IMG/VR virus record: IMGVR_UViG_3300035670_000036
Direction: 5' to 3' (one strand)
Source: an uncultured virus (IMG/VR IMGVR_UViG_3300035670_000036)
Lineage: Duplodnaviria; Heunggongvirae; Uroviricota; Caudoviricetes
Length of the DNA stretch: 64,000 nt
In this document: positions 29,675 to 50,371 of the stretch, piece by piece
Position numbering within the stretch: the first letter of the stretch is position 1
How the letters are laid out: every line of letters starts with the position of its first letter
Made by a program: the position numbers and the translations under genes
Notes under the pieces: model-generated
The model's input: the letters and a program-made list of their open reading frames with translations, nothing else
Told to the model about the DNA's origin: nothing
Database searches by the model: none

Positions 29675-29748
29675 AGTCAGGTGGCTCAATGGTAACGCAA
29701 TGAACAGGGAAGGCTGCATAGATACAGGTTCGAATCCTGTCCTGACTT
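29675..29748 (+). ncRNA. tRNA-like RNA 1 (non-canonical anticodon arm)
   Basis: AGTCAGG/CCTGACT acceptor; ACAGG-TTCGAAT-CCTGT T arm; bulged ATG-AA-CAG-GGAAGG-CTG-CAT arm. Confidence 0.7.
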
Positions 29749-30149
29749 CAAAAGGTTAATAGATGTTTAAGTGGTTTGGCTCCTGGCAGTAGATGTCGGG
29801 AGTTTTTTTGTTGCCAGTGAATTTCGCTCAAGGCAAGGCGAAGCCTTGCCTGAGTAAATTTTGCCCCTCCCCCTTTCCAGGATGGCCAGGGATCTATGGG
29901 GGAAAATCCAGGCGTTAACATTTTTTAACATTTCTTTAAGATCCTTTTAACATTTGAAATTAGGATATTAGATAGATTGGGTGTATCTTTGCAATGTCAA
30001 TTAGATGATAGGGAATAGATGAGATATGGTATGGGTTACATTTTACTACATTTCATTTTAACATGACTTTAACATTTTAGGATTAGGATATTAGATAGAA
30101 TGTTATTATCTTTGCGACATATTATTAACCACTTTAAATTTTTAGAATC

Positions 30150-30719
30150 ATGCCAAATTGGTGTTCAAATTGTATCTCATTTGAAGGTAATGAGAAAGCT
30201 ATGGAAACATTTAGAAAAGATGTTGCCAGTATTGAGGACGGTCATTGTATATTTACTGCATTGACTGATTTTAAAGAAGAATGGAGCTATGATGCTTGGT
30301 GTAATGAGTTTGGCACTAAATGGAGTGTAACGATGGACGATGACATTAGGAGTAACGTGAAAGAATGTGATTACTTTAATTGTGAAACGGCTTGGAGTCC
30401 ATGTACGGAATTTGTTAAGAAGGTATGTAAGAAGTACGGAATAGAAGGACGGATTGAATATACAGAAGGGGGGTGTGACATTGCAGGTATTGTTGAGATT
30501 GATGTAAATGGTGATGAAGTAAGTAGAAGAGATATGACTTATAATGAATATCAGTATGAAGAAGTACCTGAGAGTTTCTTCTATGATTTTATTATGAATG
30601 TTGAAGATGAATTGATTGAAAGTGAGGAGCAGATAAGAGAAGAATATTCATTTGTTACTGAGGAGGATATGTTAGAATTGATTGCATTGTTTAATGAGCA
30701 TGTCCCCTCGAAAAATTAA
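30150..30719 (+). CDS. DUF1281/YubB-like ferredoxin-fold protein
   Basis: MPNWCSN, WCNEFGTKW, ETAWSP, Y.E.G. Confidence 0.75.
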   Translation: MPNWCSNCISFEGNEKAMETFRKDVASIEDGHCIFTALTDFKEEWSYDAWCNEFGTKWSVTMDDDIRSNVKECDYFNCETAWSPCTEFVKKVCKKYGIEGRIEYTEGGCDIAGIVEIDVNGDEVSRRDMTYNEYQYEEVPESFFYDFIMNVEDELIESEEQIREEYSFVTEEDMLELIALFNEHVPSKN

Positions 30720-30805
30720 CATAATATTAACGCTAGGGGTATTGCGTAGTAAATTCAATACCCCTATCTTTGCACTAAATTAATCACCACTTTAAAACGA
30801 AAAAA

Positions 30806-31045
30806 ATGAGCGAAGTAGAAAAGGCAAAAGAAGTATTAAGAGCGCATGGTTACTTTGTAGATAACCTATGGCACAATGATGATGTACAATCATTACACAA
30901 AAGAGCTAGTGCGGAAGATGCCCAAAGGATATTAAATACGGCTCTTACCAACCAAGCTACCATGGAGCAGATATGGTATGCAATTACCGATGCTCTCGAG
31001 TTCGAGCAAGGGTATGTTCCCCTTTCAGACGAGGACGAAGATTAA
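30806..31045 (+). CDS. hypothetical protein
   Basis: Hairpin promoter and leader upstream. Confidence 0.7.
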   Translation: MSEVEKAKEVLRAHGYFVDNLWHNDDVQSLHKRASAEDAQRILNTALTNQATMEQIWYAITDALEFEQGYVPLSDEDED

Positions 31046-31130
31046 CATAATATTAACATGGGGGGATTTGGTTTTCTCAATTATCCCCCCTATATTTGCA
31101 CTATATTCTTTACCACTAAACTAAAAAAAA

Positions 31131-31853
31131 ATGGGCGACCAAAAAATTAAGATTGTAGAAGATTTTGTATGGCTATTGATTACCGACAAAGCTAAGGAAG
31201 TTTACCAGTCGGGTTTATTTGATGGTTCTATCTGTGCGCTACATGATGACGGTAGCGAGAGTTTATGTGAGACCTACGAAGACCTTACCGAAGCATTAGA
31301 GAGAGGTCTTGAAATCGGGATAGAAGTTGGTCATATAACCAAACCAGAGCCTAAGAAAATAGAATGGTATGATACCCTATACAATTTAGATGTTACGACC
31401 TTCAGGAACCTAGACCCTATCATGGAAGCTAAGACAGATGAGGAGTGGATTAAGGCAGGAGAACAGGGCATTCCAGCTTGGTGCTACTACGACAATGACC
31501 CAGCGAACAACGAACTATTTGGCAAGCTATATAATTGGTATGCGGTAAATGATAAGAGAGGACTTGCACCCGAAGGATTTAGAGTTCCAACCATAAAGGA
31601 GTTAGATGATTTATACATTAGTCCAGGTTATCCAGCGTCAGGGTGTCGTAATCATGCGAAAACTATTCATGGGAATTATCACACTCGTTTTGATAACATT
31701 AGGGAAATGGGTTTACTTTGGAGTTCTACGGAAGATGATATTGACAGAGAATTTGCTTGGTACAGCTACTTCACAAAACACCATGATAGTAATTCAGGCA
31801 TAGACGTAAATTATAAATCAATGGGTGCATCAGTTATCTGCATCAAAGATTAA
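31131..31853 (+). CDS. protein with a C-terminal Fibrobacter succinogenes major paralogous (FISUMP) domain
   Basis: NLDVTTFRN.DPI...WCYYDNDPAN...GKLYNWYAVNDKRGLAPEG.RVPT...WSST...G.SV.CIKD. Confidence 0.8.
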   Translation: MGDQKIKIVEDFVWLLITDKAKEVYQSGLFDGSICALHDDGSESLCETYEDLTEALERGLEIGIEVGHITKPEPKKIEWYDTLYNLDVTTFRNLDPIMEAKTDEEWIKAGEQGIPAWCYYDNDPANNELFGKLYNWYAVNDKRGLAPEGFRVPTIKELDDLYISPGYPASGCRNHAKTIHGNYHTRFDNIREMGLLWSSTEDDIDREFAWYSYFTKHHDSNSGIDVNYKSMGASVICIKD

Positions 31854-32236
31854 CAAAATATTAACATGGGGGGATTTGGTTTTCTTAATTATCCCCCTTA
31901 TATTTGCATCATATTATTCACCACTATAAAAAACAACATGAGAAATAGTAAGGAATGGATAGCTGTCTTAGATGGCAAAAGGATTGATTCTAATGGGTTC
32001 TATTGCAGTGAGTTCTTTCGTAGGACATGTGTTACCTCCTATAATAAGAAAGAAGCTATACGATTGCTCTCGAAGGCTAAGATGCATTACTTCGGTACTT
32101 ATAAGATTCCCAAGGAAGTTAGGATGAGAACAGACATCATTTCTAATTAACAAAACTTTAACATGAGGGGTATTGTATATATCATGTAAGCTCCTTATCT
32201 TTGTATCATATTATTAACCACTTTAAATTTTAAATC

Positions 32237-32467
32237 ATGCAGTTAGATAAAGTAATGTTGGATAAATTGGAATCTTGGTTTGAGACCTATAATCCTGATA
32301 GTATGTTATATGGATTTGATATAGATGAAGAGGATGAAGAGTTGATGTATAAGGATTATCAAGAGTTAATGGAGTTACTGGGGAGAGCTAAGAGGAATGA
32401 GTTAACGACAGATGATGTAGATGTTATAGCATTCCATTTAGATTGTATTGCAAATGATGAAGATTAA
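32237..32467 (+). CDS. hypothetical acidic protein
   Basis: Promoter and leader upstream. Confidence 0.65.
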   Translation: MQLDKVMLDKLESWFETYNPDSMLYGFDIDEEDEELMYKDYQELMELLGRAKRNELTTDDVDVIAFHLDCIANDED

Positions 32468-32498
32468 TTATTGTTCACCGCGAAAAACTTAAAAAAAA

Positions 32499-32780
32499 AT
32501 GTTAGTATTCAAGTATTTAGAAGATTTCTTACCAGGCAGACCTGTCGATGATTTTGTGTTCACAGTGTTTGATAAGCACAGCAATGAAGAACTTATATGG
32601 GATATACTAGATGTCCTTGACGAAATAAACAGAGATAGGACTGCGGATTGGATTGACTACACGAAAGATAATTGGTTTGATGGTTGGGTTTCATGGTGTG
32701 AGGATGATGCGTACACTATACTATCAATAGAGGATAGAGGAGATAAAGTGTATAGACCTTTCTTATCTATGCACATGTAG
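32499..32780 (+). CDS. hypothetical acidic protein
   Basis: ORF in operon. Confidence 0.65.
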   Translation: MLVFKYLEDFLPGRPVDDFVFTVFDKHSNEELIWDILDVLDEINRDRTADWIDYTKDNWFDGWVSWCEDDAYTILSIEDRGDKVYRPFLSMHM

Positions 32781-32787
32781 ATAAAAT

Positions 32788-32862
32788 AGCAAGGTAGCTC
32801 AGTGGTTTAGAACGGCCTTGGTTATTCGGGGTGCGACGCAGGTTCGATTCCTGCCCTTGCTG
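32788..32862 (+). ncRNA. tRNA-like RNA 2
   Basis: AGCAAGG/CCTTGCT; TAGCTCAGTGGTTTAGAAC D arm; GCCTTG-GTTATT-CGGGGT (6- or 8-nt loop); GCAGG-TTCGATT-CCTGC. Confidence 0.75.
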
Positions 32863-33067
32863 CTAAAAAAATAATAACATGGAACAGAAAGTATTAGATA
32901 TTTTAGAATTGGGGCATAAAGAAGATGGCACATTTTATTCTGACAAAGAGAAAACAGCCATGCTACTAAAATTAATTGAACAGGCATACGACGATGCTAT
33001 AAAGGGAATCTATATTTCCTTTGATTATAATGATGGTGCAGATTATGTGAAGTCAGTTTAATTACCT

Positions 33068-33195
33068 AGCAAGGTGGAGGAAGTATGGATAATTGAATAA
33101 GAAGCGTATTGAGTCAAGAAAGTGAAATTGAAGTAGCAAGTATTGTGGCACTCAATGTCAATTTGAAACCGCAGGTTCGAATCCTGCCCTTGTTA
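33068..33195 (+). ncRNA. tRNA-like RNA 3 with a long insert
   Basis: AGCAAGG/CCTTGTT; T arm GCAGGTTCGAATCCTGC; insert stems AATTGA/TCAATT and TATTGAGT/ACTCAATG. Confidence 0.7.
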
Positions 33196-33400
33196 CTAAA
33201 ATTGTAATTATGGAAATAGCAATAATTGTGGGATGGATATTTATGATATTGAGTTGGATAATACCACCTTTTATTAAAGATACACCTATTAAAGATGTAT
33301 CTAGCAGAAGATTTGTAGGATTAATTTTAGCAACATTTGCATTAGGTATTTTCTTAGGTCATGGATTATCTTTATTATTTTAGTTAATTTAAAATTAATT

Positions 33401-33533
33401 AGCAAGGTGGCGTAATTGGTAAACGCATATATGGTGTAAGTGAATCTAACTCGCGAGGTAGTTAAGCGAAGAATAAAGCACCAGATAGATGAAGTTACTT
33501 ATCATCATGCAGGTTCGATTCCTGTCCTTGCTA
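33401..33533 (+). ncRNA. tRNA-like RNA 4 (Leu-type D arm, expanded anticodon arm, variable arm)
   Basis: AGCAAGG/CCTTGCT; GCG-TAATTGGTAAA-CGC; TGGTG...CACCA enclosing a TAACT/AGTTA hairpin; GATGA/TCATC variable stem. Confidence 0.75.
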
Positions 33534-33547
33534 CTAAAAAAAATAAC

Positions 33548-33724
33548 ATGAGTTACGAACCAAAGTATATTGAGAGGCCAGTAGTGAGCGTGCATGATTC
33601 GAGCGAGGAGGGACCTATGCTTGTAATCCACAGTCACATCAACCAGAAGGATAAGATGATTCTAAGCAAAGACGAAGCATCCCTGCTGTTACTAGAGTTG
33701 TATAAATTCATTGAAAACAACTAA
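33548..33724 (+). CDS. hypothetical protein (start MSYEPK)
   Basis: ATG just after the tRNA-like RNA; the longer track ORF runs through the RNA. Confidence 0.6.
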   Translation: MSYEPKYIERPVVSVHDSSEEGPMLVIHSHINQKDKMILSKDEASLLLLELYKFIENN

Positions 33725-33725
33725 C

Positions 33726-34733
33726 ATGAAAGTATTAATAACGGGTGTCGCAGGATTCATTGGAAGTCATCTAGCGCATTCTATGTTAACCCAATGCCAC
33801 AAAGTGATAGGTGTGGACTTCTTTGATGGAGGCGATACCCAGTTATTAAAAAAGATGAGGTTGAGTGATATATGGAACAATCGCCAGGATGGAAAAGGTA
33901 TTGGCTGCTACGACTTGGACATAGCGGACAAGAAGAAGGTAGACATCTTATTCTCTCTGCACAAGTTTGACCTAGTAGTGAACTTAGCAGGACAGGCCGG
34001 AGTTAGAGCTAGCGTCAAGGATCCGGATCTCTTTGCCCGATCAAATGTCCAGGGATTCTTAAACATTATAGAAGCATGTAAGAAGTATGAAGTAAAGCAT
34101 CTGGTGTATGCATCTAGTTCAAGTGTATATGGAATGGGTAGTAACATGGATATGGCATTTAGTACAGATGATAGAACAGATGGGCCGGTATCCTTTTATG
34201 CAGCGACTAAGAAGATGAATGAATTGACGGCACATGTATATAGTCATTTGTTCAACATGCGTACTACAGGTCTTAGATTCTTTACAGTGTATGGTCCATG
34301 GGGTAGGCCGGATATGATGGTTTATAGATTTACATATAACATCCATAATAACATTCCTATTGACATTTATAATCATGGAGAGATGTTTAGAGAATTTACT
34401 TATATTGATGATATTATTGATGGGATTAATATTGTGATTAAAAATGAAACGGATGTCAAGTACATGTTATATAATGTAGGGAGTAATGAGAGCATTAAGA
34501 TTTTAGATTTCATTGATGTTCTGGAGGAGGAGATTGGAAAGAAGGCCCGCCGGAATTTAGAACGGATGCAAGACGGAGACGTTTACTTCACTGCGTCCGA
34601 CGTATCACCCCTAAGAAGATTGGGATACGAACCGAAAGTAAAATACAGAGAAGGGATCAAACGGTTTTTAAAATGGTATGATTCAATAGACGATATAGAA
34701 CACCGGATCATAATGGAACAGACCGGTGTGTAA
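33726..34733 (+). CDS. NAD-dependent epimerase/dehydratase (UDP-glucuronate 4-epimerase-like)
   Basis: GVAGFIG, NLAGQAGVR, ASSSSVYG, YAATK, LRFFTVYGPWGRPDM. Confidence 0.93.
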   Translation: MKVLITGVAGFIGSHLAHSMLTQCHKVIGVDFFDGGDTQLLKKMRLSDIWNNRQDGKGIGCYDLDIADKKKVDILFSLHKFDLVVNLAGQAGVRASVKDPDLFARSNVQGFLNIIEACKKYEVKHLVYASSSSVYGMGSNMDMAFSTDDRTDGPVSFYAATKKMNELTAHVYSHLFNMRTTGLRFFTVYGPWGRPDMMVYRFTYNIHNNIPIDIYNHGEMFREFTYIDDIIDGINIVIKNETDVKYMLYNVGSNESIKILDFIDVLEEEIGKKARRNLERMQDGDVYFTASDVSPLRRLGYEPKVKYREGIKRFLKWYDSIDDIEHRIIMEQTGV

Positions 34734-34822
34734 GAGCAAAGTTTAAGTGGTGCATTTTAGAAGGTAGGCTCTAACCTCCCCGGTTAACCTACCTTCCTTT
34801 TAAAAACAAACAAATCAATTAT

Positions 34823-35170
34823 ATGAGATCAATCCTTTCAACCTTTTTACTCTTCGGAGTGTTTTATTCTTATGGCCAAGAACCGATTAACTGTGTAATA
34901 AACAACACCGTTCTATTCGAAAATCTTGAGCCCGACCAAGATAAGTTCGAGTACGTTATCGTGGATCGGAGCACAGACCTGATAGACGGTATTAATCACA
35001 TGCTAATGTTCTTGGTACCTCAAAGGAACAACCGAGTTGTATCTTTCCGGGGAGAAGAGCGGGAAGTGGTTTACAATGCTAAGAAGAGGCGGTACATCTT
35101 TGACGGAGGAACCTACAAGACCTACCCGGATCTACTTTCGGCGGTGAAGTTCTTTTTATTAACCAATTAA
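34823..35170 (+). CDS. hypothetical secreted protein
   Basis: Signal-peptide-like N-terminus. Confidence 0.6.
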   Translation: MRSILSTFLLFGVFYSYGQEPINCVINNTVLFENLEPDQDKFEYVIVDRSTDLIDGINHMLMFLVPQRNNRVVSFRGEEREVVYNAKKRRYIFDGGTYKTYPDLLSAVKFFLLTN

Positions 35171-41215: not shown

Positions 41216-44004
41216 ATGGAAAAAGAATTTGTAAGCTATGAACTGGCTTTAGAACTCAAAGAATTAGGTTTTGATGAGCCTTGTTTTACATATTATTACA
41301 ATGTTTCCAGCAAATTAAGAACAAATACATCGGTTGATATAAATAATGGTTGGATATACTCACTAAATAAAAAATTAGCAATTACTTTAGCTCCAACATT
41401 TTCCCAGGCATTCAAATTTTTTAGAGAGGAATACAAATTACCTTCTTGGGTATATACTAGCGATAATGAAAAATTTTACTTTGGCATTCTCAGAGATACA
41501 CGTTTCCTTATCGATGGTAATAAACCTTGGGAGACATACGAAGAAGCGGAGTTGGCGTGTTTACTAAAATTGATTGAAGTAGTTAAAAACAAATGATATG
41601 ATTATGAGTTCTAAAGATATTATTATTTATGAATTCGCTCTAAAAATTAAAAACCTTGGATTTGATGAGCCTTGTATTGGTAATTACAGAAAAGTTCAAG
41701 TATCAGATGCTAAAACGGGAGACTCTTCCGAATCTACCGTATATTTGGATATGATGACTTTTACTATGAATTTTAATGAGAATAATAAAGATACAGATGC
41801 TTCAGCTCTTACATATTCTCAAGCATTTAGATTTTTTAGAGAGAAGTATGATCTTTTTGGATGTATTGATTTACATGTGAGTACACCTCTTCATTGGTAT
41901 GTGAGAATTGATAAAATTTCTATTAATGATTATGTTTACCATTCAGAAGATGATTCTAAATATTATGTCAAGTACGAGGATGCGGAGATAGCATGTTTAA
42001 TGAAATTAATTGAAATTGTTGAAAATATATAATCATGGAAAAAGAATTTGTAAGTTTTGAAATTGCATTGAAACTTAAAGAATTGAGATTTGATGAAGAA
42101 TGTTTTAAATATTATACAAACACGGGAGAATTATATTTTAGTAACCTTTATGGAATACACGCTCCCGTATTTTCTCAAGCATTTAGATTTTTTAGAGAGA
42201 AGTATAACATGTTGGCAAATGTATATAGTAATGCAAGTGGATTTTGTTATGAATACAGTGATACTTTTGGAGGTACTCATAGACTTGATTCAGGATTTGA
42301 TGGGCCTAATCATTCAGGATGTTGGAATAGTTATGAAGATGCAGAACTAGCATGTTTACGAAAAATGATTGAGATTGTTAAAAATACATCAATATGAAAA
42401 ATAATTTTGTAATGAGAGAAGAATTTGTAAGTTTTGAAGTCGCAGTAAATCTTAAAAATGTGGGATTTGATGAACCATGTATAGCATTGTACAAAAATAA
42501 AAAATTAAGATATGAAATAAAAGATTGTAATGGCATTGTAGATTTTTATAATGAAGGTGGTAAAGTAATTTCATATTTAGCACCGACATTTTCTCAAGCA
42601 TTTAGATTTTTTAGAGAGAAGTATAAAATGGCTATAATTAATCCTGATTGGAATAATAAATTTAAGTACGAAATTTTTAATTTGCACTTATTAAATCAAG
42701 GGGTATTAGTTACAAAATCAGGATTTGAAACCTACGAAGAAGCAGAGTTAGCATGTTTACAAAAAATGATTGAGATTGTTAAAAATATATAATTATGATG
42801 AATGAACTTATTTCTTATAATGATTCTTTAATGCTTAGAGAATTAGGATTTGATGAGGCATGTTTTGCTTGGTATAGTAAGGGTCAATTAATACTTGAAC
42901 ATCATATCATATTTACTGGAGATCAATATTACATGAGAGAAGAGGATTGTAATGCCCCCACATTTTCTCAAGCATTTAGATTTTTTAGGGAGAAGTTTAA
43001 TCTTTTTAGTTGTGTTGAATTACATTTTAACTTTCCTATCCGTTATTATTTTATGATTGAGGAAATTGGTAATGATGATTTTGTTTACCACACAGAAGAT
43101 GAAACCATATTTTACGATAAATATGAGGATGCGGAAATAGCTTGTTTAAAACTATTAATTGAATTAGTTAAAAATAAATCAGTATGAAACATAACCCTGA
43201 ATCTAAAAAAGAATTTGTAAAATACGAAGTAGCAGTAGAACTTAAAAAATTAGGATTTGATGAGCCTTGTTTGGGTAGATGGTTAGTGGTAAAAGAATGG
43301 GAGGAACCAACGGGAGAAATTATACTACAACTAGGAACTAAAGCGGAGGACTATGATAAAGATCAATGTCCCGCACCACTATTTTCCCAGGCTTTTAGAT
43401 TTTTTAGGGAGAGACACGGATTATATAGTCTATATACAATGGGAGATTATGAGAATAACTTCTATTGGCAAATTTGGAGAAATGATTCTATCACTAAGAC
43501 TTATATCACAGCATCTAATTATGTGTTTGAAACGTATGAAGAAGCAGAGCTAGCATGTTTAATGAAATTAATTGAAATAAAAACTAAATCAATATGAAAG
43601 ATTTTGTTCCATATAATGAAGCGTTAAAACTTAAAGAATTAGGTTTTAATGAACCATGTATTTTCGGTTATAATGATTATCGTGTACTTAGAAGTAAAAT
43701 TGCATCATCATTTGATGGTGATTTTGTAAAATGGAATGAAAAATATGATAGAGATTTAAAAGCTCCATTATATCAACAGGCATTTAGATTTTTTAGGGAG
43801 AAGTATCAATGGCAATCATACATAGAACCAACTTCTGATCAACATAGTCGCGAACTTGGATACAACTACTGTCTTTGGAATTATAAAACAGGTGAGGAAT
43901 ATAATACAATGCCTCAAAATTGCCCCTCCGGAGATTGGGAGTTTGAAAAGTATGAAGATGCGGAATTGGCATGTTTAATAAAATTAATTGAAATAAACTC
44001 ATGA
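41216..44004 (+). repeat. tandem array of 7 paralogous CDSs (41216, 41598, 42035, 42394, 42795, 43184, 43594)
   Basis: Each has E.AL.LK.LGFDEPC, AP.FSQAFRFFREK and YE.AELACL.KLIE blocks separated by variable segments. Confidence 0.9.
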
Positions 44005-45056: not shown

Positions 45057-45419
45057 ATGATAAACGAGCTAAGAAAAAAAGAATCACAACAAATTAAAAA
45101 CGAAAACATGATAAACAAGATTAATGAAGAAATTGCGGAGCAGTTTGGTTTAAACTTTGATGAATTACTAGATGATTTTTTAGAAGATTCTTATAATGAA
45201 CATAGGCGAGGATCTACATTCTATGTACAATCTATTGTGGAAATAGATGAAGAGAATTATCCGGATATTGATAAACAACTTTATGGTTATTGGCAAACAA
45301 ATCAATATGTTTTTAGCGATGATTATGGTTATGACAAAAGAGATATTGATACCTTAACGAGAGTAACCGTAAAAGAAAAAACTGTTATTGAAAAATATTG
45401 GGAAGAAGTAGAAAATTAA
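45057..45419 (+). CDS. hypothetical acidic protein
   Basis: Hairpin promoter upstream. Confidence 0.6.
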   Translation: MINELRKKESQQIKNENMINKINEEIAEQFGLNFDELLDDFLEDSYNEHRRGSTFYVQSIVEIDEENYPDIDKQLYGYWQTNQYVFSDDYGYDKRDIDTLTRVTVKEKTVIEKYWEEVEN

Positions 45420-45429
45420 TGGTAAAATT

Positions 45430-45933
45430 ATGAACAAAGAATTTCCAACATCTTATAATCATTTAATTTCCCTAGCGCCCAGGACATTGAAAGAGTTGTT
45501 ATTCAATCAATGGGGAGCTAAACAAAACGTAGTATGGCATCCAGAGGGGAATACCTTAAAGCATATTATTGTAGTATTGCGAAGAGCTTATGAAGAGTAT
45601 CCGGATAATCCTAACATGATAATGGCAGCTCTATTCCACGACTTAGGGAAAATGGAAACCTATGGTATAAACGAAAAAACGGGGCAGCCAACTGCGTATG
45701 GCCATGAACATAAGTCGGCAGAGTATGTTTTGCAGTATAAAGATTGGATCCTGTCTTTTGAGGGAACGGACATTGAATCCATACATTTTATAGTAAAGAA
45801 TCACATGTTGGTAAAGTATCCTGATCCAGTACTAGAATCCATTAGGCCATTCAAGCGAGAAGCTATTGAAAATCATAGGTCATTCTATGATTTAATATCT
45901 TTCTCTACAATCGACAAAGGAGGAATTAATTAA
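45430..45933 (+). CDS. stand-alone HD-domain phosphohydrolase resembling the HD domain of CCA-adding enzymes
   Basis: Q...WHPEG.TLKH...AALFHDLGK...AYGHE..SA...NHM. Confidence 0.8.
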   Translation: MNKEFPTSYNHLISLAPRTLKELLFNQWGAKQNVVWHPEGNTLKHIIVVLRRAYEEYPDNPNMIMAALFHDLGKMETYGINEKTGQPTAYGHEHKSAEYVLQYKDWILSFEGTDIESIHFIVKNHMLVKYPDPVLESIRPFKREAIENHRSFYDLISFSTIDKGGIN

Positions 45934-45950
45934 CTTTAAAAACATAAATT

Positions 45951-46211
45951 ATGAGCTCAATAACAGTAGAAGCAGAAATTGACTTGGATGATTACCTAGA
46001 TGAAATTGTTTATGAATTTAGGACCTGTAATCGTTTCAGGCGAGATCTATTAAAAGCAATGGAAGAAGAGGATATTAAAGTGGTCGACAAAAATGATGAA
46101 AATGAGGATGATGATGAAAGATGTGTATGGATTAATAAAATTTTAGTTAATTATTGGAAGTTGACTCAAGAAGAAACTGATTTAATTAAAAAAATTGCAG
46201 ATAGATTTTAA
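45951..46211 (+). CDS. hypothetical protein
   Basis: ORF. Confidence 0.6.
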   Translation: MSSITVEAEIDLDDYLDEIVYEFRTCNRFRRDLLKAMEEEDIKVVDKNDENEDDDERCVWINKILVNYWKLTQEETDLIKKIADRF

Positions 46212-46290
46212 AATGACATGAAATAATTTGTTTTTGTCATTTTTATTCGTATCTTTGTGTATTATTATTTCCCTTTTAAAAATATTAATT

Positions 46291-46647
46291 ATGTCTGAAG
46301 AATCGTATAATTCAGGTCTTAGTTTCATGGGTGCATTAACTATCCTATTCACTGCCTTAAAACTTACTAATTATATAGATTGGTCTTGGTGGTGGGTTCT
46401 GTCTCTTATGTGGCTTCCGCTTATTATTTCACTTTTAAAAATATTAATTATGTCTAAAGAATCGTCTAATTCAGGTCTTAGTTTCATGGGTGCATTAACT
46501 ATCCTATTCACTGCCTTAAAACTTACTAATTATATAGATTGGTCTTGGTGGTGGGTTCTGTCTCCTATGTGGCTTCCGCTATTTGTTCTATTAATATCTG
46601 CGGGACTAATATCGGTTATTAAGTATGTCAAAAGTACAAAAAAATAA
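46291..46647 (+). CDS. membrane protein (LKL..YIDWSWWWVLSP.W family) with a 159-bp in-frame tandem duplication
   Basis: Near-identical 159-bp units; ATGs at 46291 and 46450. Confidence 0.75.
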   Translation: MSEESYNSGLSFMGALTILFTALKLTNYIDWSWWWVLSLMWLPLIISLLKILIMSKESSNSGLSFMGALTILFTALKLTNYIDWSWWWVLSPMWLPLFVLLISAGLISVIKYVKSTKK

Positions 46648-46653
46648 ATAGTT

Positions 46654-46917
46654 ATGAGTAGTTTCGATTATCAAGGTTTAACGCCTAAAAGAGTATTTCC
46701 GGAGTCTATGGATGAAAGTCTCATTGGAAGAAAAGTAATGTATAAAGAAGAATGGAATAATGTCAATGTTCAATATGAGCATGGTACCATCACTTCATTT
46801 AATGAGAGATATGTTTTTATTGATTTTAGAGGTAATGGATTTGGGCAAGCGTGTAAATATCATAATGTCTTGTTAGCCCCCACGAGTATTGCCCCTCACA
46901 TTTGTACACTACCTTAA
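46654..46917 (+). CDS. hypothetical SH3-like protein
   Basis: IGRKVMY...EHG.ITSFNERYVFIDF. Confidence 0.55.
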   Translation: MSSFDYQGLTPKRVFPESMDESLIGRKVMYKEEWNNVNVQYEHGTITSFNERYVFIDFRGNGFGQACKYHNVLLAPTSIAPHICTLP

Positions 46918-46931
46918 TTAAATCTTATATC

Positions 46932-47576
46932 ATGTTGTATGTTAGTATTGATATTGAAACAAGTGGGTTGAATCCTAATAAAGATCAAATCCTATCATTT
47001 GGGGCAATTATTGAAGATACAAGTAAAATGTTATCATTTGAAGATTGTCCTAAGTTCTATGCTACTGTTATTCATAGACGTATTAAAGGATCTCCGGAGG
47101 CATTATCGATGAATATGGATCTTGTTCAGGACATTTCAGATTATTTAGAAAATGAAAGTAATGATGCATTAAATAATGTTGTAGGTAATTGGAATCCTAT
47201 TTTTGTTGAGACTTTTACATTAACTGCATGTTTTACATCTTTTCTAGATGCTAATGGAATTAAAGCTAATTCTAGGTATGGTAGATTTAAGATAAATGTA
47301 GCTGGAAAGAATTTTGCTGCATTTGACATGTTATTCTTAAATAATGTTCCTGGATGGGGTGGATTTATTGATGTTCATAAAAGAGTGTTGGACCCCGCAA
47401 TTTTATATTTTGATTTGGTAAGAGATTCCGAGTTACCGTCTTTAGATATATGTAAGATGAGAGCTAAGATTGATGGGGATGTTAGTCATAATGCTTTATT
47501 AGATGCATGGGATGTTATTCAATTAATAAGACATAAATTTGATATGACTCACAGCGGAAAATTAACATATTATTAA
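46932..47576 (+). CDS. DEDDh 3'-5' exonuclease (DnaQ/oligoribonuclease-like)
   Basis: IDIETSG, AGKNFAAFD, HNALLDA. Confidence 0.88.
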   Translation: MLYVSIDIETSGLNPNKDQILSFGAIIEDTSKMLSFEDCPKFYATVIHRRIKGSPEALSMNMDLVQDISDYLENESNDALNNVVGNWNPIFVETFTLTACFTSFLDANGIKANSRYGRFKINVAGKNFAAFDMLFLNNVPGWGGFIDVHKRVLDPAILYFDLVRDSELPSLDICKMRAKIDGDVSHNALLDAWDVIQLIRHKFDMTHSGKLTYY

Positions 47577-47628
47577 CAAAGTAGGTATTGTTTTTGTGGA
47601 AGAACATACTTATATTTGCATTGTAATT

Positions 47629-47754
47629 AGTCAGATGGCGAAACAAGGGCAGTGCTGATAAAGCTGATTCCTGATGGTAGACGCTAGCGTTGTAAAGGTA
47701 GAATGATAAATAGATTACGCTTCATTCGTACAGGTTCGAGTCCTGTTCTGACCA
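47629..47754 (+). ncRNA. tRNA-like RNA 5 (D-loop and anticodon-loop inserts), just downstream of a TATATTTG promoter box
   Basis: (A)GTCAGA/TCTGAC(C); GCG...GGTAGACGC with a ~30-nt insert; AGCGT-N26-ACGCT; ACAGG-TTCGAGT-CCTGT. Confidence 0.75.
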
Positions 47755-47832
47755 CGATGTCTAGGTAGCGCCTAGATGAACTTAGGGCGGTAACGGGCTA
47801 GCCTAAGAGAGATTGAAAAAAAGCCCGTACAT

Positions 47833-47945
47833 GGTCAGGTGGTGTAATGGTAACATTGTGGTGAATTTCGAAATATACAACTATTTCTAGACCATCCAGA
47901 CACGTGCGGGGCGTGTTGTTGCAGGTTCGAATCCTGCCCTGACCA
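47833..47945 (+). ncRNA. tRNA-like RNA 6
   Basis: GGTCAGG/CCTGACC; GTGT-AATGGTA-ACAT; GTGGT-N28-ACCAT; variable stem GACACG/CGTGTT; canonical T arm. Confidence 0.78.
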
Positions 47946-48170
47946 CAATGAGTAAGAGATACTCAGTAGACTTGTCAATGTCTCATTTAAACTTGGTAGG
48001 GTATTGGACTGGACATCCTTAAACGCCAGTCTCGTAGGAATAAAGGGAAAGCACAATCCCTCCTAGTAGTGTGATTTTAGATTTCATGTGGTAAGACACT
48101 AATGGTTAGAGTTTTTAAGAAAACAAAACCGTTAAAATCTACTCACCAGTAATCTCATGGTGAGGAAAAT

Positions 48171-48249
48171 GGTCAGGTGGGCGTAATGAGGAAGGGTTTC
48201 CGAGTCCAGTAAAACGGTTGCTTATCCGGTTCAAGTCCGGCCCTGACCA
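48171..48249 (+). ncRNA. tRNA-like RNA 7
   Basis: GGTCAGG/CCTGACC; CCGG-TTCAAGT-CCGG; enlarged D arm; AGTAA-AACGG-TTGCT (5-nt loop). Confidence 0.65.
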
Positions 48250-48398
48250 CAAAAAGCCCTCTGCCTAGCGCTGGGTATGGATCGAAGATAGAGATTACAG
48301 ATATGCGACTTATACTCGTGTATTGGCGTGGACGCTCTCCGAATCGTAGGTCGGCATAGTTTGTGTGTTCTAGGGGTATTACAAAAACACTCATTTTT

Positions 48399-48492
48399 AG
48401 AAAGGTGGCGAAAATGGATAAACGTAAGGACAGCGTAATAGCTTATAAAAAGGTCTCCGAAAAAGTTGCAGGTTCAAATCCTGTCCTTTCTA
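48399..48492 (+). ncRNA. tRNA-like RNA 8
   Basis: AGAAAGG/CCTTTCT; GCG-AAAATGGATAAA-CGT; enlarged anticodon loop; GCAGG-TTCAAAT-CCTGT. Confidence 0.7.
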
Positions 48493-48543
48493 CATTTTAT
48501 ATCTTTTAAAAAACTTTTTTACACACACTTAAAATTTATTTTT

Positions 48544-48930
48544 ATGGAAACAAACTTCAAGATTGCCAAATTTGTAAGAAATGACAATTCATTCGAAAAG
48601 ACCGGGTATGATGAATATTCAATTACATATTTAAAGGGAGTTAAGGTTCATGAATTGAGAATTGTTGTAAATGGATATTTAACTAAACAAACAATAAACA
48701 TAATTGATTTTAGTTCAGGATATAAAAACAAAATATTAGTTGGTATTAAAGAATATCTTGAAAATGGTAAAGATAGTAAAAATAAAGTCACTAAAAAGGT
48801 AACACTGTATTACTTAGAAACTTTTTATTCAAAAAAGATAATTCATAATGTTAAATCATTTTTATTGCCTATTAATAAAGAAGAGTCAAGAGATAAATTA
48901 ACAGAGCTTGGGTTAATAAATTTTGCATAA
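48544..48930 (+). CDS. hypothetical protein (start METNF)
   Basis: CACTTAAA leader before the ATG. Confidence 0.65.
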   Translation: METNFKIAKFVRNDNSFEKTGYDEYSITYLKGVKVHELRIVVNGYLTKQTINIIDFSSGYKNKILVGIKEYLENGKDSKNKVTKKVTLYYLETFYSKKIIHNVKSFLLPINKEESRDKLTELGLINFA

Positions 48931-48976
48931 TGTTTGCGAATAATTTTAATCCGGCTCTCATTAAAAAACAAAAATT

Positions 48977-49222
48977 ATGACAACAGTAGAGAAAATGATT
49001 CATATTAAAAAGCTAGTAGAAGAAGTGGAATCAGAAGTACGGGAAACGGCTAGACATATAGAAGATGTTGATTGGCCGCTTTACAGAATGCTTACAGAAG
49101 GATGCGCCGACCGGTTTAAGGATATATCTAAAAACCTATCAACAGGATATACAATTGAAAGTTGGGAGAAGCAATTGTGGCAGGCTTATAAGTTAATTTG
49201 GCCAAATTCGGTAAAACTTTAA
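48977..49222 (+). CDS. hypothetical protein
   Basis: ORF. Confidence 0.6.
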   Translation: MTTVEKMIHIKKLVEEVESEVRETARHIEDVDWPLYRMLTEGCADRFKDISKNLSTGYTIESWEKQLWQAYKLIWPNSVKL

Positions 49223-49572
49223 ATGATTAAAAATGAATAGTATACTAATATGTATTTCACTACAATTTGTTTTGTTTACACCATTTTATTTAATTTGGAG
49301 AAACGACTGTAAAGAAATAGGTAAAGAAAAGTTAGCAGTAAGTTTAACTGAAAGGTTTATTTCTTGGGTATTATTTTGCCCAATTTGGATCATTCCATTT
49401 ATTCGTTAAATTCCTTCCTTCATACAAATTTAAAAATAATAGATCATGAAAACATTGTTTGAAATTTATAGAAAACAAGCATCTATTGCTTATAATTACC
49501 CATCAGTTAAATTGTGCTCAGATGGTGATGTAATAAATTATTTGAGAAGTATTAAGTTATAAGAACTAATAT

Positions 49573-49715
49573 AGCAAGGTGGCGGAATTGGTAGACGCTT
49601 AAAACATGATAAGGTTGACGTGGTGTAAATAGTCGAAGAGTTTATCCTTCACATTCTAACGAATCCATTTATGTTATACAGTTCAACTTTGCAGGTTCGA
49701 ATCCTGCCCTTGCTA
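49573..49715 (+). ncRNA. tRNA-like RNA 9 with a long anticodon-arm insert
   Basis: AGCAAGG/CCTTGCT; TGGCGGAATTGGTAGACGC (Leu-type); AACATGA...TTATGTT enclosing ~60 nt; canonical T arm. Confidence 0.78.
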
Positions 49716-49730
49716 CAAAATAAATAAGCT

Positions 49731-49982
49731 ATGAGACAATTTGAAAAAAATGAATGGAGTCATTTACATGACGTTGTATTAAGTGCAACATGGGATAAAT
49801 CCAAAAAATTATCCCAGTCTGAATTGGAGGATTTATTTGAAGAGTTTCCTGAACATATCAAAGAAGATGCGTATAAACATGGATTAAATAATTCAGTAGT
49901 TAGTGATACTATTTACGTTTGGATTGAGAAAAATAATATACAAGAACGTGAACAGGATTTACTAACAAGTTATGGTAGATAA
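49731..49982 (+). CDS. hypothetical protein
   Basis: ORF between two tRNA-like RNAs. Confidence 0.6.
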   Translation: MRQFEKNEWSHLHDVVLSATWDKSKKLSQSELEDLFEEFPEHIKEDAYKHGLNNSVVSDTIYVWIEKNNIQEREQDLLTSYGR

Positions 49983-49988
49983 CAGATT

Positions 49989-50232
49989 AGCAAGGTGGCG
50001 GAATGTTCAAACAACCCCGTTCTAGTCGGAAAAATAATGTGGTTCGAATCCACTACGGGGTTAATGTTTGAACTTGGTAGACGCTTAAGGGTTGGATAGA
50101 TGTTGCAACGTAAAACAGAGAAAATAACCTAACAAATCATACACTGACAGTTGTAATTGTAAGTTTACTGTAGCAGAATACAGTCTTTACAGCTGAAAAT
50201 CTATCGTGCAGGTTCGAATCCTGTCCTTGCTA
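49989..50232 (+). ncRNA. tRNA-like RNA 10 (244 nt) with a nested T-loop helix in the D loop
   Basis: AGCAAGG/CCTTGCT; the D loop is split by GTTCAAACA...TGTTTGAAC; large downstream insert GATAGAT...ATCTATC. Confidence 0.75.
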
Positions 50233-50294
50233 CGCAAAAAACATAAGATGGAGTTTCCTTACCTTGTAAAAGATGGGTTTTAGAAATCTTAACT

Positions 50295-50371
50295 AGTCAG
50301 GTGGCAGATTGGTATGCAACTCTCGGTGTAAACAAAAGGGTGATAAGCAGGTTCGATTCCTGTCCTGACTA
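50295..50371 (+). ncRNA. tRNA-like RNA 11 (13-nt anticodon loop)
   Basis: AGTCAGG/CCTGACT; GCA-GATTGGTA-TGC; ACTCT-CGGTGTAAACAAA-AGGGT; GCAGG-TTCGATT-CCTGT. Confidence 0.78.

What the first reader, a model, noticed from the sequence alone, without database searches (positions are those of the whole stretch)
29675..50371. Family of 11 tRNA-scaffold RNAs whose anticodon arm is replaced by variable structured cargo
Seen: eleven + strand elements (29675, 32788, 33068, 33401, 47629, 47833, 48171, 48399, 49573, 49989, 50295) keep a 7-bp acceptor stem. The stems covary (AGCAAGG/CCTTGCT, AGTCAGG/CCTGACT, GGTCAGG/CCTGACC, AGAAAGG/CCTTTCT). The elements also keep U8, usually a D arm with GG, and a near-perfect T arm (RCAGG-TTCRANT-CCTGY in 10 of 11). 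None has a canonical 7-nt anticodon loop: that region runs from a 5-nt loop to inserts of more than 100 nt, usually closed by a helix. Lengths are 74-244 nt and none encodes CCA. Selection therefore keeps the acceptor/elbow half while the decoding half is free. Established: tRNA mimics that retain the acceptor/T elbow include the tmRNA TLD, bacterial Y RNAs and viral TLS elements, and RNase P, RNase Z and CCA enzyme recognise this half. Inference: a phage-encoded family of tRNA mimics. They could act as decoys for host anticodon nucleases or tRNA-sensing defences, as stable carriers for small RNA cargo, as processing signals that cut the polycistronic early mRNA, or as tRNAs with non-group-I introns.
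Basis: partly seen in the sequence, partly recalled or inferred. Interest (0 to 1): 0.92.

Follow-up and report, generated by a model that had tools for sequence, protein, structure and literature searches.

The report
Phage family of anticodon-less tRNA-shaped RNAs
An uncultured freshwater phage carries eleven genes for RNAs that keep the upper half of a leucine tRNA but replace the decoding arm with variable folded inserts; such RNAs are common in uncultured phages, belong to no catalogued RNA family, and their job is unknown.

Summary
All 11 + strand elements have a paired acceptor stem, U8 and a T arm, and none has a canonical anticodon arm. A covariance model finds these 11 plus one true tRNA-Met in the window and nothing else.

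- **Distribution.** The same scaffold occurs in at least 137 IMG/VR loci and 27 MAG loci, at 2-17 model matches per record (some are true tRNAs). Among 140 unique copies there are 121 unrelated cargo types.
- **Structure.** Stems covary strongly: 97.7% of cells are paired, 13 of 15 pairs change on both sides, and 0 of 500 shuffles do as well.
- **Origin.** The scaffold is leucine-tRNA-like and keeps every element that E. coli LeuRS needs.
- **Flanks.** U-1 and A73-C74 without CCA match those of true tRNAs in the same phages.
- **Position.** Many copies sit 6-7 nt after a stop codon and 14-20 nt before an ATG.
- **Mosaicism.** Homology between related phages breaks at the elements.

Best reading (0.5): these are handles for host tRNA-processing enzymes. 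They release stable, non-decoding RNAs, cut the operon transcripts, and also serve as crossover sites. No transcript ends were seen.

The closest named analogue is T4 rnaC, whose function is unknown. This scan has flagged similar RNAs in other phage DNA.

The parts
29675..29748 (+). Element 1, 74 nt. Acceptor AGTCAGG/CCTGACT, discriminator T. Anticodon-side arm with a 6-nt loop. Starts 6 nt after the stop of ORF 29501-29668.
   Evidence: 65.2 bits with R1
29778..29812 (+). Terminator-like hairpin (11 pairs) and T run, 30 nt after element 1. Element 1 therefore closes a transcription unit.
32788..32862 (+). Element 2, 75 nt. Acceptor AGCAAGG/CCTTGCT, discriminator G. 5-bp stem with a 6-nt loop. 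Lies 7 nt after the stop at 32780 and 16 nt before the ATG at 32879.
33068..33195 (+). Element 3, 128 nt. Acceptor AGCAAGG/CCTTGTT, weak D arm, about 95-nt cargo. Lies 6 nt after the stop at 33061 and 14 nt before the ATG at 33210.
   Evidence: 37.8 bits
33401..33533 (+). Element 4, 133 nt. Perfect leucine-type D arm. 9-bp helix closing a 42-nt loop, plus a long variable-arm hairpin. Lies 14 nt before the ATG at 33548.
47629..47754 (+). Element 5, 126 nt. Acceptor AGTCAGA/TCTGACC (pair 7-66 is A-U, pair 1-72 is mismatched). About 30-nt insert in the D loop (about 47644-47673), conserved in L140 and L142 with compensatory changes.
47755..47832 (+). 78-nt ORF-free spacer between elements 5 and 6. 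In one RNA-library contig it appears as a discrete module in a different sequence context.
   Evidence: (X18 record 14 and its loose ends)
47833..47945 (+). Element 6, 113 nt. Acceptor GGTCAGG/CCTGACC. Absent from relative L138, whose homology breaks in the shared 5' half.
47946..48170 (+). 225-nt ORF-free spacer between elements 6 and 7. Absent from L138.
48171..48249 (+). Element 7, 79 nt, with a CCGG T stem. Whole element is 96% mean column identity across four relatives. One internal pair runs G-C / G-U / A-U across the orthologues.
48250..48398 (+). 149-nt conserved non-coding spacer, probably another small RNA released by processing of its neighbours.
   Evidence: 5 sequences, 3 compensatory pairs, tip insertion in L143; no Rfam hit
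48399..48492 (+). Element 8, 94 nt. Acceptor AGAAAGG/CCTTTCT. The orthologue in L138 has AACAAGG/CCTTGTT, which is two compensatory pairs.
49573..49715 (+). Element 9, 143 nt. Leucine-type D arm. Its cargo is shared with L142:7730 (one A-U to G-C compensatory pair) but sits there on a different acceptor stem. Cargo is unrelated in four other relatives. Lies 15 nt before the ATG at 49731.
   Evidence: 51.8 bits
49989..50232 (+). Element 10, 244 nt. Starts 6 nt after the stop at 49982. Has both a D-loop insert and a long anticodon-side cargo.
50005..50073 (+). 69-nt insert in the D loop of element 10. A 9-bp closing helix leads to a 7-bp helix and a T-arm-like hairpin, forming a nested mini tRNA-like fold. 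Conserved in L138, L140 and L142 with a C-G to U-A change in the closing helix.
   Evidence: the X15 joint 49587->50074 bypasses it
50143..50195 (+). 53-nt hairpin module inside the cargo of element 10. Missing as DNA from L138 and from an X15 contig.
50295..50371 (+). Element 11, 77 nt. 5-bp stem with a 13-nt loop. Lies 20 nt before the ATG at 50392.
   Evidence: 62.3 bits
32879..33724 (+). Three orphan ORFs (32879-33061, 33210-33383, 33548-33724; 57-60 aa), each preceded by an element.
   Evidence: no PHROG
48544..50631 (+). Orphan small ORFs interleaved with elements 8-11: 48544-48930, 48977-49222, 49233-49409, 49731-49982, 50392-50631.

Best explanation
These are real RNA genes. Each is a non-decoding RNA derived from a leucine tRNA, in which the conserved upper half (acceptor stem, D arm and T arm forming the elbow) works as a handle for the host's tRNA-maturation enzymes.

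Proposed mechanism:
1. The elements are transcribed as part of the + strand operons of small accessory genes.
2. RNase P cuts at their 5' end, and the 3' end is trimmed after A73 or C74 and probably completed with CCA.
3. This releases a stable tRNA-shaped RNA that carries a variable folded module.
4. The same cuts divide the polycistronic transcript at the cassette borders. The downstream mRNA is left with a short, A-rich, unstructured leader, which suits a host that does not use Shine-Dalgarno sites.
5. The cuts also free the non-coding spacers that lie between elements.
6. At the DNA level, the two constant halves (about 25 nt each) act as crossover sites, so ORF cassettes and RNA cargo modules are shuffled between related phages.

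Shown here: the fold and its covariation, the absence of a decoding arm, the tRNA-type flanks, the position relative to ORFs, the wide distribution, and breakpoints of homology at the elements.

Inferred, not shown: transcription, cleavage by RNase P and a 3' nuclease, CCA addition, stability of the product, and any action of the cargo in trans.
For: Fold under selection:
- Over 146 distinct sequences, 97.7% of cells are paired, 13 of 15 pairs change on both sides, and 0 of 500 shuffles reach this. Slid controls give 31-40% paired (the smaller set agrees).
- Within the window the acceptor stems differ but stay paired.
- Orthologue pairs show compensatory changes in the acceptor (element 8), in D-loop inserts (elements 5 and 10) and in cargo hairpins (elements 7 and 9).

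Not decoders: 0 of 11 window elements, and 2 of 151 window plus family copies together, have a canonical anticodon arm.

tRNA-type processing context:
- Position -1 is T in 116 of 140 copies, position 73 is A in 127 of 140, position 74 is C in 136 of 140, and there is no CCA.
- In the window the figures are 10 of 11, 9 of 11 and 11 of 11.
- Most true tRNAs on the same contigs, and the window's own tRNA-Met, show the same -1 T, C74 and lack of CCA; 3 of the 16 printed that do not carry the family scaffold encode CCA.

Position:
- In the window the elements start 6-7 nt after a stop codon in 4 cases and end 14-20 nt before an ATG in 5 cases.
- In the family, 33 of 140 have a same-strand ORF start 12-23 nt downstream and 38 of 140 have a same-strand ORF end 3-15 nt upstream.
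- No terminator-like hairpin lies at or directly after any element except element 1; one other + strand site (50653-50670) lies beyond ORF 50392-50631.
- Only 3 of 104 ORFs have a Shine-Dalgarno-like word upstream, against 12.6 +/- 3.4 in random windows.

In other phages, members sit inside arrays of true tRNAs.

Recombination: homology between the window and L138-L143 stops and restarts inside the scaffold halves. Joints in related contigs fall at 47747->48243, 48167->49573, 47943->49567 and 49587->50074.

Precedent:
- Plant mitochondrial t-elements are cut by RNase P and RNase Z and carry non-encoded C/A (PMC1920247, passages read).
- T4 rnaC lies in the T4 tRNA cluster and has a T arm and an acceptor-like helix.
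Against: - No transcript, 5' end, 3' end or CCA tail was observed. The only RNA-library data were assembled contigs, which cannot show ends and may include DNA.
- Punctuation alone does not need a conserved D arm or conserved cargo, and it does not explain four elements in a row with no ORF between them (47629-48492).
- Thermodynamic z-scores are modest, from +0.4 to -2.8.
- The near-identity of the scaffold sequence across many unrelated contigs (AGTCAGGT in 122 of 140) exceeds what RNase P needs. It may reflect gene conversion or an unknown sequence-specific partner.
- Same-strand bias of flanking open frames is only moderate: 61 against 24 flanks with 80 or more open codons, out of 259.
Confidence: 0.5

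Rival explanations
1. Chargeable leucine mimics. The RNAs are matured and then leucylated by host LeuRS, which ignores the anticodon. They act in trans through the charged acceptor end, for example by tying up LeuRS or EF-Tu, or by donating an amino acid to a non-ribosomal transferase.
For: The scaffold keeps the whole E. coli LeuRS identity set:
- A73 in 127 of 140, A14 in 121 of 140, A15 in 127 of 140, GG in the D loop in 128 of 140, and an intact T loop.
- The review PMC9976931 (section 'Leucine identity', read) states that A73, A15-U48, G18G19 and the D/T-loop contacts are needed, and that tRNA-Leu lacking both the anticodon arm and the variable arm is still charged.

This would explain why a leucine-type body in particular tolerates loss of the decoding arm. 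A phage enzyme that uses charged tRNA as a donor is known: Mu Mom (PMC13219725, abstract read).
Against: - No charging data exist.
- 2 of 11 window elements have a discriminator other than A, namely T and G.
- The identity rules come from E. coli, not from the likely Bacteroidota host.
- Eleven different cargos are not needed for this role.
- No tRNA-dependent transferase was recognised in the window.
Confidence: 0.15
2. Decoys or sponges for host defences that sense or cut tRNA (anticodon nucleases, acceptor-tail nucleases, tRNA-modifying toxins), or for host tRNA-binding proteins.
For: - High copy number (2-17 model matches per record at E <= 0.001, some of them true tRNAs).
- Location among small orphan accessory genes.
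- The phage also carries an RNA-repair set: HD protein, kinase, phosphoesterase and RNA ligase. That fits a conflict centred on tRNA.
- Two family members carry a canonical UUU (Lys-type) anticodon arm.
Against: - A decoy for an anticodon nuclease should keep the targeted anticodon loop, but 149 of 151 copies have none and cargo shares no enriched word.
- A decoy for acceptor-end enzymes does not explain conserved cargo.
- Nothing here links the elements to any defence system.
Confidence: 0.12
3. DNA-level repeats only. The conserved halves are recombination linkers or selfish repeats that spread cassettes, and the RNA fold is inherited baggage with no RNA function.
For: - Breakpoints of homology fall at the elements.
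- At the position of element 9, cargo is replaced wholesale while both flanks stay homologous.
- The PeSL repeats of T4-type phages are a precedent (PMC2839356 and PMC4122927; search listing and start of abstracts only).
Against: - The 5' and 3' acceptor strands lie 60-230 nt apart yet stay complementary through double changes, and all 7 acceptor pairs covary.
- U8, A14, GG and the T loop are kept.
- Inserts and cargo hairpins show compensatory changes.
- All 11 lie on the coding strand.
Confidence: 0.06
4. Interrupted real tRNAs. The inserts are introns of a new kind, removed by cleavage and by the phage's own healing-and-sealing enzymes to give decoding tRNAs.
For: - RNA ligase (phrog_968, E = 3.5e-59), a polynucleotide-kinase-like ATPase and a metallophosphoesterase are encoded 0.5-6 kb downstream of the second cluster.
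- The D-loop insert of element 10 is flanked by a perfect 9-bp helix, and its removal restores the D loop of element 9.
- Lak phages have unexplained tRNA 'introns', one of which may itself encode a tRNA (PMC6784885, passages read).
Against: - The anticodon-side loops of 5, 6, 12 or 13 nt, and the larger cargos, hold no anticodon stem-loop that excision would restore.
- All elements share one or a few acceptor stems, so they cannot carry many amino-acid identities.
- There is no group I or other intron family in the cargo.
- A 100%-complete carrier genome (G004) has no PF09414 ligase.
- The one internal 'skip' seen in RNA-library contigs (50142->50196) also exists as DNA in L138.
Confidence: 0.04
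5. Decaying tRNA pseudogenes left over from an old tRNA array.
For: - ARAGORN and Rfam give weak or odd calls.
- Cargo differs greatly between relatives.
Against: - Stems do not decay: 97.7% of cells are paired, with many compensatory changes.
- The scaffold is far more conserved than the neighbouring genes. Element 7 is 96% identical where the flanking protein is 81% identical.
- At least 137 viral loci carry it.
Confidence: 0.02

Closest known systems
Bacteriophage T4 rnaC (species 1 RNA, 139 nt) of the T4 tRNA cluster
   Same: - It is a phage-encoded small stable RNA lying among tRNA genes.
- It has a T arm with the GGTTCGAATCC loop, a 5'/3' acceptor-like helix and a large folded insert where the D and anticodon arms would be.
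- Its function is still unknown (PMC9697503, section 3.3, passage read).
   Different: - There is no sequence-level membership. R1 scores rnaC at 21.5 bits, in the range of ordinary T4 tRNAs (10-30 bits), against 37-78 bits for family members.
- The rnaC acceptor pairs at only 5 of 7 positions and it has no leucine-type D arm.
- T4 has one copy, not 11.
- rnaC is not interleaved with ORFs.
t-elements of plant mitochondria (tRNA-like processing signals) and the tRNA punctuation model
   Same: They are non-decoding tRNA-like folds with a conserved T arm, set next to mRNA ends. They are cut by RNase P and RNase Z and receive non-encoded C/A (PMC1920247, passages read). This is the same logic proposed here for elements set 6-7 nt after stops and 14-20 nt before starts.
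   Different: - t-elements are organellar, few in number and have no conserved cargo.
- The elements here are on phage DNA, form a family of at least 140 unique sequences, keep a D arm, carry conserved structured inserts, and often stand in RNA-only arrays.
'Enigmatic' introns in tRNA genes of Lak megaphages
   Same: Phage tRNA-shaped genes with inserts of no known intron class, one of which may itself encode a tRNA (PMC6784885, passages read). Compare the nested mini tRNA-like fold at 50005-50073.
   Different: The Lak genes are reported as tRNAs with an assignable anticodon once the insert is removed. Here no anticodon arm remains, and inserts also sit in the D loop.
PeSL repeats (promoter-early stem-loops) of T4-type phages
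   Same: Short conserved intergenic repeats that flank variable small ORFs in hyperplastic regions and mediate modular shuffling (PMC2839356 and PMC4122927; listing and start of abstracts only). Here the breakpoints also fall in the repeats.
   Different: PeSLs are promoter/terminator motifs. These repeats are tRNA-shaped RNA genes with covarying long-range pairing, and promoter-like words are not enriched around them.
allo-tRNAs and 'polycistrons of irregular tRNAs' (Mukai et al. 2017)
   Same: tRNA bodies whose synthetase ignores the anticodon (serine type there, leucine type here) drift freely in the anticodon region. Some are charged but not used in translation (PMC5389517, passages read).
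   Different: - allo-tRNAs keep a 7-nt anticodon loop and have 8/4 or 9/3 acceptor/T geometry.
- They are mostly bacterial.
- The elements here have 7/5 geometry, no anticodon loop and large inserts.

Membership tests
Canonical tRNA (Rfam RF00005) | 7-bp acceptor stem, U8, and a T arm with a GTTCRANYC loop | tested here: met
Canonical tRNA (Rfam RF00005) | 5-bp anticodon stem closing a 7-nt loop with U33 and R37 | tested here: not met
   0 of 11 in the window; 2 of 151 for window and family together. Loops are 5, 6, 12 or 13 nt, or are replaced by large inserts.
Canonical tRNA (Rfam RF00005) | Score at or above the Rfam gathering cut-off (29 bits) | tested here: inconclusive
   5 of 11 reach 36-44 bits and only through local alignment that skips the insert. 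True tRNAs on the same DNA score 56-64 bits.
Canonical tRNA (Rfam RF00005) | Aminoacylation and decoding on the ribosome | not testable with these tools
   Needs charging and translation assays.
Bacterial tRNA-Leu (as the ancestor of the scaffold) | LeuRS identity set: A73, U8:A14, A15, G18G19 and T-loop contacts. The anticodon and variable arm are not required. | tested here: met
   The rules come from PMC9976931. The match of the D arm to the E. coli tRNA-Leu D arm is recalled, not tested.
T4 rnaC-type phage stable RNA | T arm plus terminal acceptor-like helix, with a large insert instead of the decoding arm, encoded with phage tRNAs or early genes | tested here: met
   for rnaC; for this family
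T4 rnaC-type phage stable RNA | Sequence or profile homology to rnaC | tested here: not met
   R1 gives 21.5 bits on rnaC, no better than on T4 tRNAs.
t-element / tRNA punctuation signal | tRNA-like fold abutting coding regions on the same strand | tested here: met
t-element / tRNA punctuation signal | Mapped RNA ends at the fold's 5' and 3' borders, with non-templated C/A | not testable with these tools
   Only assembled contigs of RNA libraries were available.
tRNA gene with a group I intron | Group I intron core within the insert | tested here: not met
   No intron family at E <= 10 in window 28000-52000, or at E <= 1 in 20 family loci. Inserts are 20-150 nt.
Bacterial Y RNA (YrlA) / tmRNA tRNA-like domain | Match to the Rfam YrlA model, or a tmRNA call | tested here: not met
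   YrlA scores 23-26 bits against a cut-off of 69, on two loci only. ARAGORN finds no tmRNA. In YrlA the RNA ends lie in the anticodon-side helix, not in the acceptor helix (recalled).
PeSL-type shuffling repeats | Conserved repeats at the borders of variable cassettes, with breakpoints inside the repeats | tested here: met
PeSL-type shuffling repeats | Composite early promoter plus terminator stem-loop | tested here: not met
   Promoter-like sites are no more frequent than in shuffles, and the repeat is a tRNA fold.

The most novel reading that the evidence does not exclude
Phages use the upper half of a leucine tRNA as a universal expression scaffold, a natural counterpart of the engineered 'tRNA scaffold'. 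The host's own tRNA enzymes cut out, cap and stabilise whatever is grafted into the D loop or in place of the anticodon arm. The grafted modules are a large, fast-turning library of structured effector RNAs (121 unrelated types among 140 copies). These could be aptamer-like binders of host or rival-phage factors. They are traded between phages by crossovers in the two constant halves, in parallel with the small orphan genes that lie between them. If this is right, T4 rnaC would be a lone, diverged example of the same principle.
Probability: 0.25. Interest if true: 0.92.

Novelty: new variant of a known kind. Interest (0 to 1): 0.8.

Why it matters
- **A missed class of genes.** tRNA finders and Rfam either miss these genes or report them as odd tRNAs or pseudogenes, yet they occur at 2-17 model matches per viral record (some of them true tRNAs) in many uncultured aquatic phages. 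Phage RNA gene content is therefore under-counted.
- **A route into an old question.** The family has many natural variants, which gives a tractable way to ask what tRNA-shaped stable RNAs such as T4 rnaC do. That has been open since the 1970s.
- **Operon processing.** If the processing reading is right, tRNA punctuation, known from organelles, also organises phage operons in hosts that lack Shine-Dalgarno sites.
- **Mosaicism.** The constant halves acting as crossover sites would explain how orphan accessory genes and RNA modules are shuffled between phages.
- **Why a leucine tRNA.** The leucine-type body suggests why this particular tRNA was co-opted: its synthetase does not read the anticodon.

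Tried and rejected
- **Close relatives among sequenced phages.** blastn of both clusters found no match. blastn of a scaffold member gave only partial hits of 45% coverage or less.
- **Own genome.** None is held.
- **Known RNA families in the cargo.** None in the window or in 20 family loci.
- **Shared cargo motif.** No 6- to 8-mer was clearly enriched over shuffles; the top 8-mers (5 copies against a shuffle maximum of 4) come from scaffold overlap or related cargos. An apparent recurrence of GTAA in window cargos was dropped as not significant.
- **Cargo antisense to the phage's own genes.** The best matches were 11-15 nt, within the shuffle range of 24-32 bits.
- **Thermodynamic stability as evidence.** z-scores ran from +0.4 to -2.8, which is uninformative. 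Spacer z-scores were -1.7, -1.5 and +0.1.
- **Promoter-like sites.** Not enriched.
- **Families for the flanking ORFs.** All but two are orphans in PHROGs, and those two match families of unknown function.
- **Linkage to RNA ligase or CCA-adding enzyme.** PF09414 passes its cut-off in 2 of 5 carrier records and PF01743 in 1 of 5. The complete genome G004 has neither. Three of the five records are fragments, and other ligase families were not searched.
- **Host tRNA with the same T arm and acceptor.** The pattern occurs in 27 loci on 24 contigs, all from MAGs. ARAGORN calls a canonical tRNA at none of the pattern sites themselves; its four calls in these loci include one nearby true tRNA-Gln and a forced Ala call (5-nt loop) on a second family copy in L165. 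12 of the 24 contigs are binned as Bacteroidota, which is only a weak hint of host.
- **RNA evidence.** Four RNA-library runs hold related sequence only as assembled contigs. They show no ends and no strand, no splice-like joint that is absent from DNA, and their coverage gaps mean nothing.
- **ARAGORN calls of Val, Ala, Glu and others on family members.** Inspection showed forced calls on 5-6-nt loops.
- **Literature.** Searches found no description of this family. Supplements were not read.

Full report
**What is in the window**

The window is low-GC DNA (about 30-40%) packed with small + strand ORFs, which is typical of a large phage. Pfam finds a subtilase, a cell-wall hydrolase, RadC, ThyX, two ParB-N proteins and an RNA ligase.

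No cultured phage matches the two clusters by blastn, and no genome is held for the window. Close relatives occur in 14 DNA runs from subsurface, pond, freshwater, aquatic and wastewater metagenomes.

Only 3 of 104 ORFs have a Shine-Dalgarno-like word upstream, against 12.6 +/- 3.4 expected. The leaders are 48% A. Half of the MAG contigs that carry the scaffold (12 of 24) are binned as Bacteroidota. Together these give a weak hint of a Bacteroidota host.

**Checking the observation**

All 11 elements are real.
- Each has a 5' strand that pairs with the seven bases after a T arm: 7 of 7 pairs in ten elements and 6 of 7 in one. Each has U8.
- The T-loop word occurs 12 times exactly, always on the + strand. 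With up to one mismatch there are 17 matches against 4.66 +/- 2.18 in shuffles.
- ARAGORN calls only two of them, and oddly.
- Rfam tRNA gives 36-44 bits for five of them, only by skipping the middle, against 64 bits for the one true tRNA (tRNA-Met, 6271-6342, - strand).
- A covariance model of the scaffold (R1), run with filters off, finds exactly these 11 and the tRNA-Met.
- None passes a strict anticodon-arm test. The anticodon-side loops are 6, 6, 12 and 13 nt in the short elements, and the long elements carry inserts of 40 to about 150 nt.
- Two elements (47629 and 49989) also carry an insert inside the D loop. The insert in 49989 (50005-50073) is itself a miniature acceptor-plus-T-arm fold.

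**A very large family**

Of 161 matches, 144 have a perfectly pairing 5' strand followed by T, giving lengths of 68-223 nt. There are 140 unique sequences.

The scaffold is conserved as sequence:
- The 5' end reads AGTCAGGT in 122 of 140.
- A leucine-type D arm follows, with A14 in 121, A15 in 127 and a GG in 128 of 140.
- The T arm is conserved.
- Position 73 is A in 127 of 140.

The middle is hypervariable. There are 121 unrelated cargo clusters among the 140, no clearly enriched word and no Rfam family.

Only 2 of the 151 window and family copies have a canonical anticodon arm, and both carry UUU.

Five viral records hold 15, 4, 2, 17 and 11 model matches. Some of the low-scoring matches are true tRNAs. 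In other phages, members sit inside arrays of true tRNAs.

The pattern also occurs in 27 loci of MAG contigs and in no isolate genome. ARAGORN calls a tRNA at none of the pattern sites themselves.

**Selection acts on the RNA fold**

On 146 distinct sequences aligned to the model:
- 97.7% of cells pair.
- 13 of 15 pairs change on both sides, in 100 cells.
- 0 of 500 shuffles reach this.
- Sliding the partner strand gives 31-40% pairing.

The caveats are that the alignment is fitted to the model and includes a few true tRNAs. The independent MAFFT set of 42 sequences agrees.

Six related loci were fetched through the exonuclease-like ORF upstream of the second cluster. They give direct orthologue tests:

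| Element | Result in relatives |
|---|---|
| 7 | 96% identical across phages whose flanking protein is 81% identical. One internal pair runs G-C, G-U, A-U. |
| 8 | Acceptor changes from AGAAAGG/CCTTTCT to AACAAGG/CCTTGTT. |
| 5 and 10 | The D-loop inserts are conserved, with compensatory changes. |
| 9 | The same cargo recurs in L142 with an A-U to G-C change in a hairpin, but on a different acceptor stem. |

This rules out ordinary pseudogenes and repeats that act only at the DNA level.

**What the flanks say**

Position -1 is T in 116 of 140 and position 74 is C in 136 of 140. No CCA follows, and the trailer is A-rich. Most true tRNAs on the same contigs, and the window's tRNA-Met, have the same flanks; 3 of the 16 printed that do not carry the family scaffold encode CCA. 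The elements therefore present themselves to the processing machinery as tRNAs do.

That U-1 and C74 favour RNase P recognition is recalled knowledge, not tested here.

In the window, elements begin 6, 7, 6 and 6 nt after a stop codon (elements 1, 2, 3 and 10). They end 16, 14, 14, 15 and 20 nt before an ATG (elements 2, 3, 4, 9 and 11).

In the family, 33 of 140 have a same-strand ORF start 12-23 nt downstream, and 38 of 140 have a same-strand ORF end 3-15 nt upstream. Only element 1 is followed directly by a terminator-like hairpin.

Elements 5-8 form an RNA-only stretch. One of its spacers (48250-48398) is itself a conserved, covarying non-coding segment.

**Mosaicism**

Comparing the window with L138-L143 shows that homology runs from the 3' half of one element, through the ORFs, to the 5' half of the next. 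It then breaks.
- L138 lacks 47850-48168, which joins the shared 5' halves of elements 6 and 7.
- L138 lacks 48495-48962.
- L138 replaces the cargo of element 9.
- L138 has two extra cassettes inserted at the T arm of element 11.

Contigs of relatives in four RNA-library runs show joints at the same places: 47747->48243 with 8 shared letters, 48167->49573, 47943->49567, and 49587->50074 with 15 shared letters. The constant halves therefore behave as crossover sites, as PeSL repeats do in T4-type phages (listing only). This probably also homogenises the scaffold sequence.

**Why a leucine tRNA**

According to the identity review (PMC9976931), E. coli LeuRS needs A73, A15-U48, G18G19 and the D/T-loop contacts. 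It needs neither the anticodon nor the variable arm, and tRNA-Leu stripped of both arms is still charged. The family keeps exactly that set.

This explains why this body tolerates loss of the decoding arm, and it leaves charging as an open possibility.

**Reading**

I commit, at 0.5, to the following. The conserved half is a handle for host tRNA-maturation enzymes. It releases stable non-decoding RNAs, cuts the operon transcripts at cassette borders and frees the spacer RNAs. The same repeats serve as recombination linkers.

Transcription, cleavage, CCA addition and stability are all inferred.

| Rival reading | Confidence |
|---|---|
| Chargeable leucine mimic | 0.15 |
| Decoy | 0.12 |
| DNA-only linker | 0.06 |
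| Spliced tRNA | 0.04 |
| Pseudogene | 0.02 |

**Comparison with what is known**

T4 rnaC is the closest named thing. It has a T arm, a 5-of-7 acceptor-like helix and a large insert, and its function is unknown. R1 scores it no better than ordinary T4 tRNAs, so it is an analogue, not a member.

The partial parallels are t-elements, Lak 'introns', allo-tRNAs and PeSLs. The recently described bacterial tRNA mimics (skipping-rope and others; abstract read) are different RNAs.

Four literature searches found no description of this family.

Earlier notes of this scan describe similar anticodon-less tRNA look-alikes in other phages. The class has therefore been met before. This window adds the multi-copy intercistronic layout, the leucine-type logic, the hypervariable cargo and the recombination role.

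Noticed in passing
window 48250-48398 (+): A 149-nt ORF-free spacer between elements 7 and 8 is conserved in four relatives. It has long invariant blocks, a central hairpin with 3 compensatory pairs and a 21-nt tip insertion in L143. It has no Rfam match. It is likely a further small RNA.
   Followed up: partly
window 45430-45930, 50873-51304, 52615-53376, 55570-56697 (+): A dispersed RNA-repair set lies next to the second cluster: an HD protein (weakly like the HD part of tRNA nucleotidyltransferase), a polynucleotide-kinase-like ATPase, a metallophosphoesterase, and an RNA ligase with an N-terminal OB fold (phrog_968, E = 3.5e-59).
   Followed up: partly
window 46902-47573 (+): A DEDD exonuclease-like ORF (PHROG 'DNA polymerase exonuclease subunit') lies directly upstream of the second cluster. 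It is syntenic with a tRNA-like cluster in all six relatives fetched.
   Followed up: partly
window 41216-44004 (+): Seven adjacent ORFs of 120-144 aa with no Pfam match cross-hit one another's counterparts in L138 and L139 by blastn. This suggests a tandem array of paralogues.
   Followed up: no
window 6270-6342 (-): This is the only canonical tRNA in the window: tRNA-Met (CAT), 63.8 bits. It has the same -1 T and A73-C74 without CCA as the tRNA-like elements.
   Followed up: yes
window 47755-47832 (+): The 78-nt spacer between elements 5 and 6 appears in one RNA-library contig (X18). There it is flanked on both sides by unrelated sequence, with borders at the element edges, as if it were a separate module.
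   Followed up: no
L026:400-470 (-), L060:400-470 (-): Two family members carry a fully canonical anticodon arm with UUU (Lys-type) on the AGTCAGG scaffold. The discriminator is T in L026. These are the only 2 of 151 that pass the test.
   Followed up: partly
whole window: ORF starts avoid Shine-Dalgarno-like words (3 of 104 against about 12.6 expected), and leaders are 48% A. This fits a host with Shine-Dalgarno-independent initiation.
   Followed up: partly
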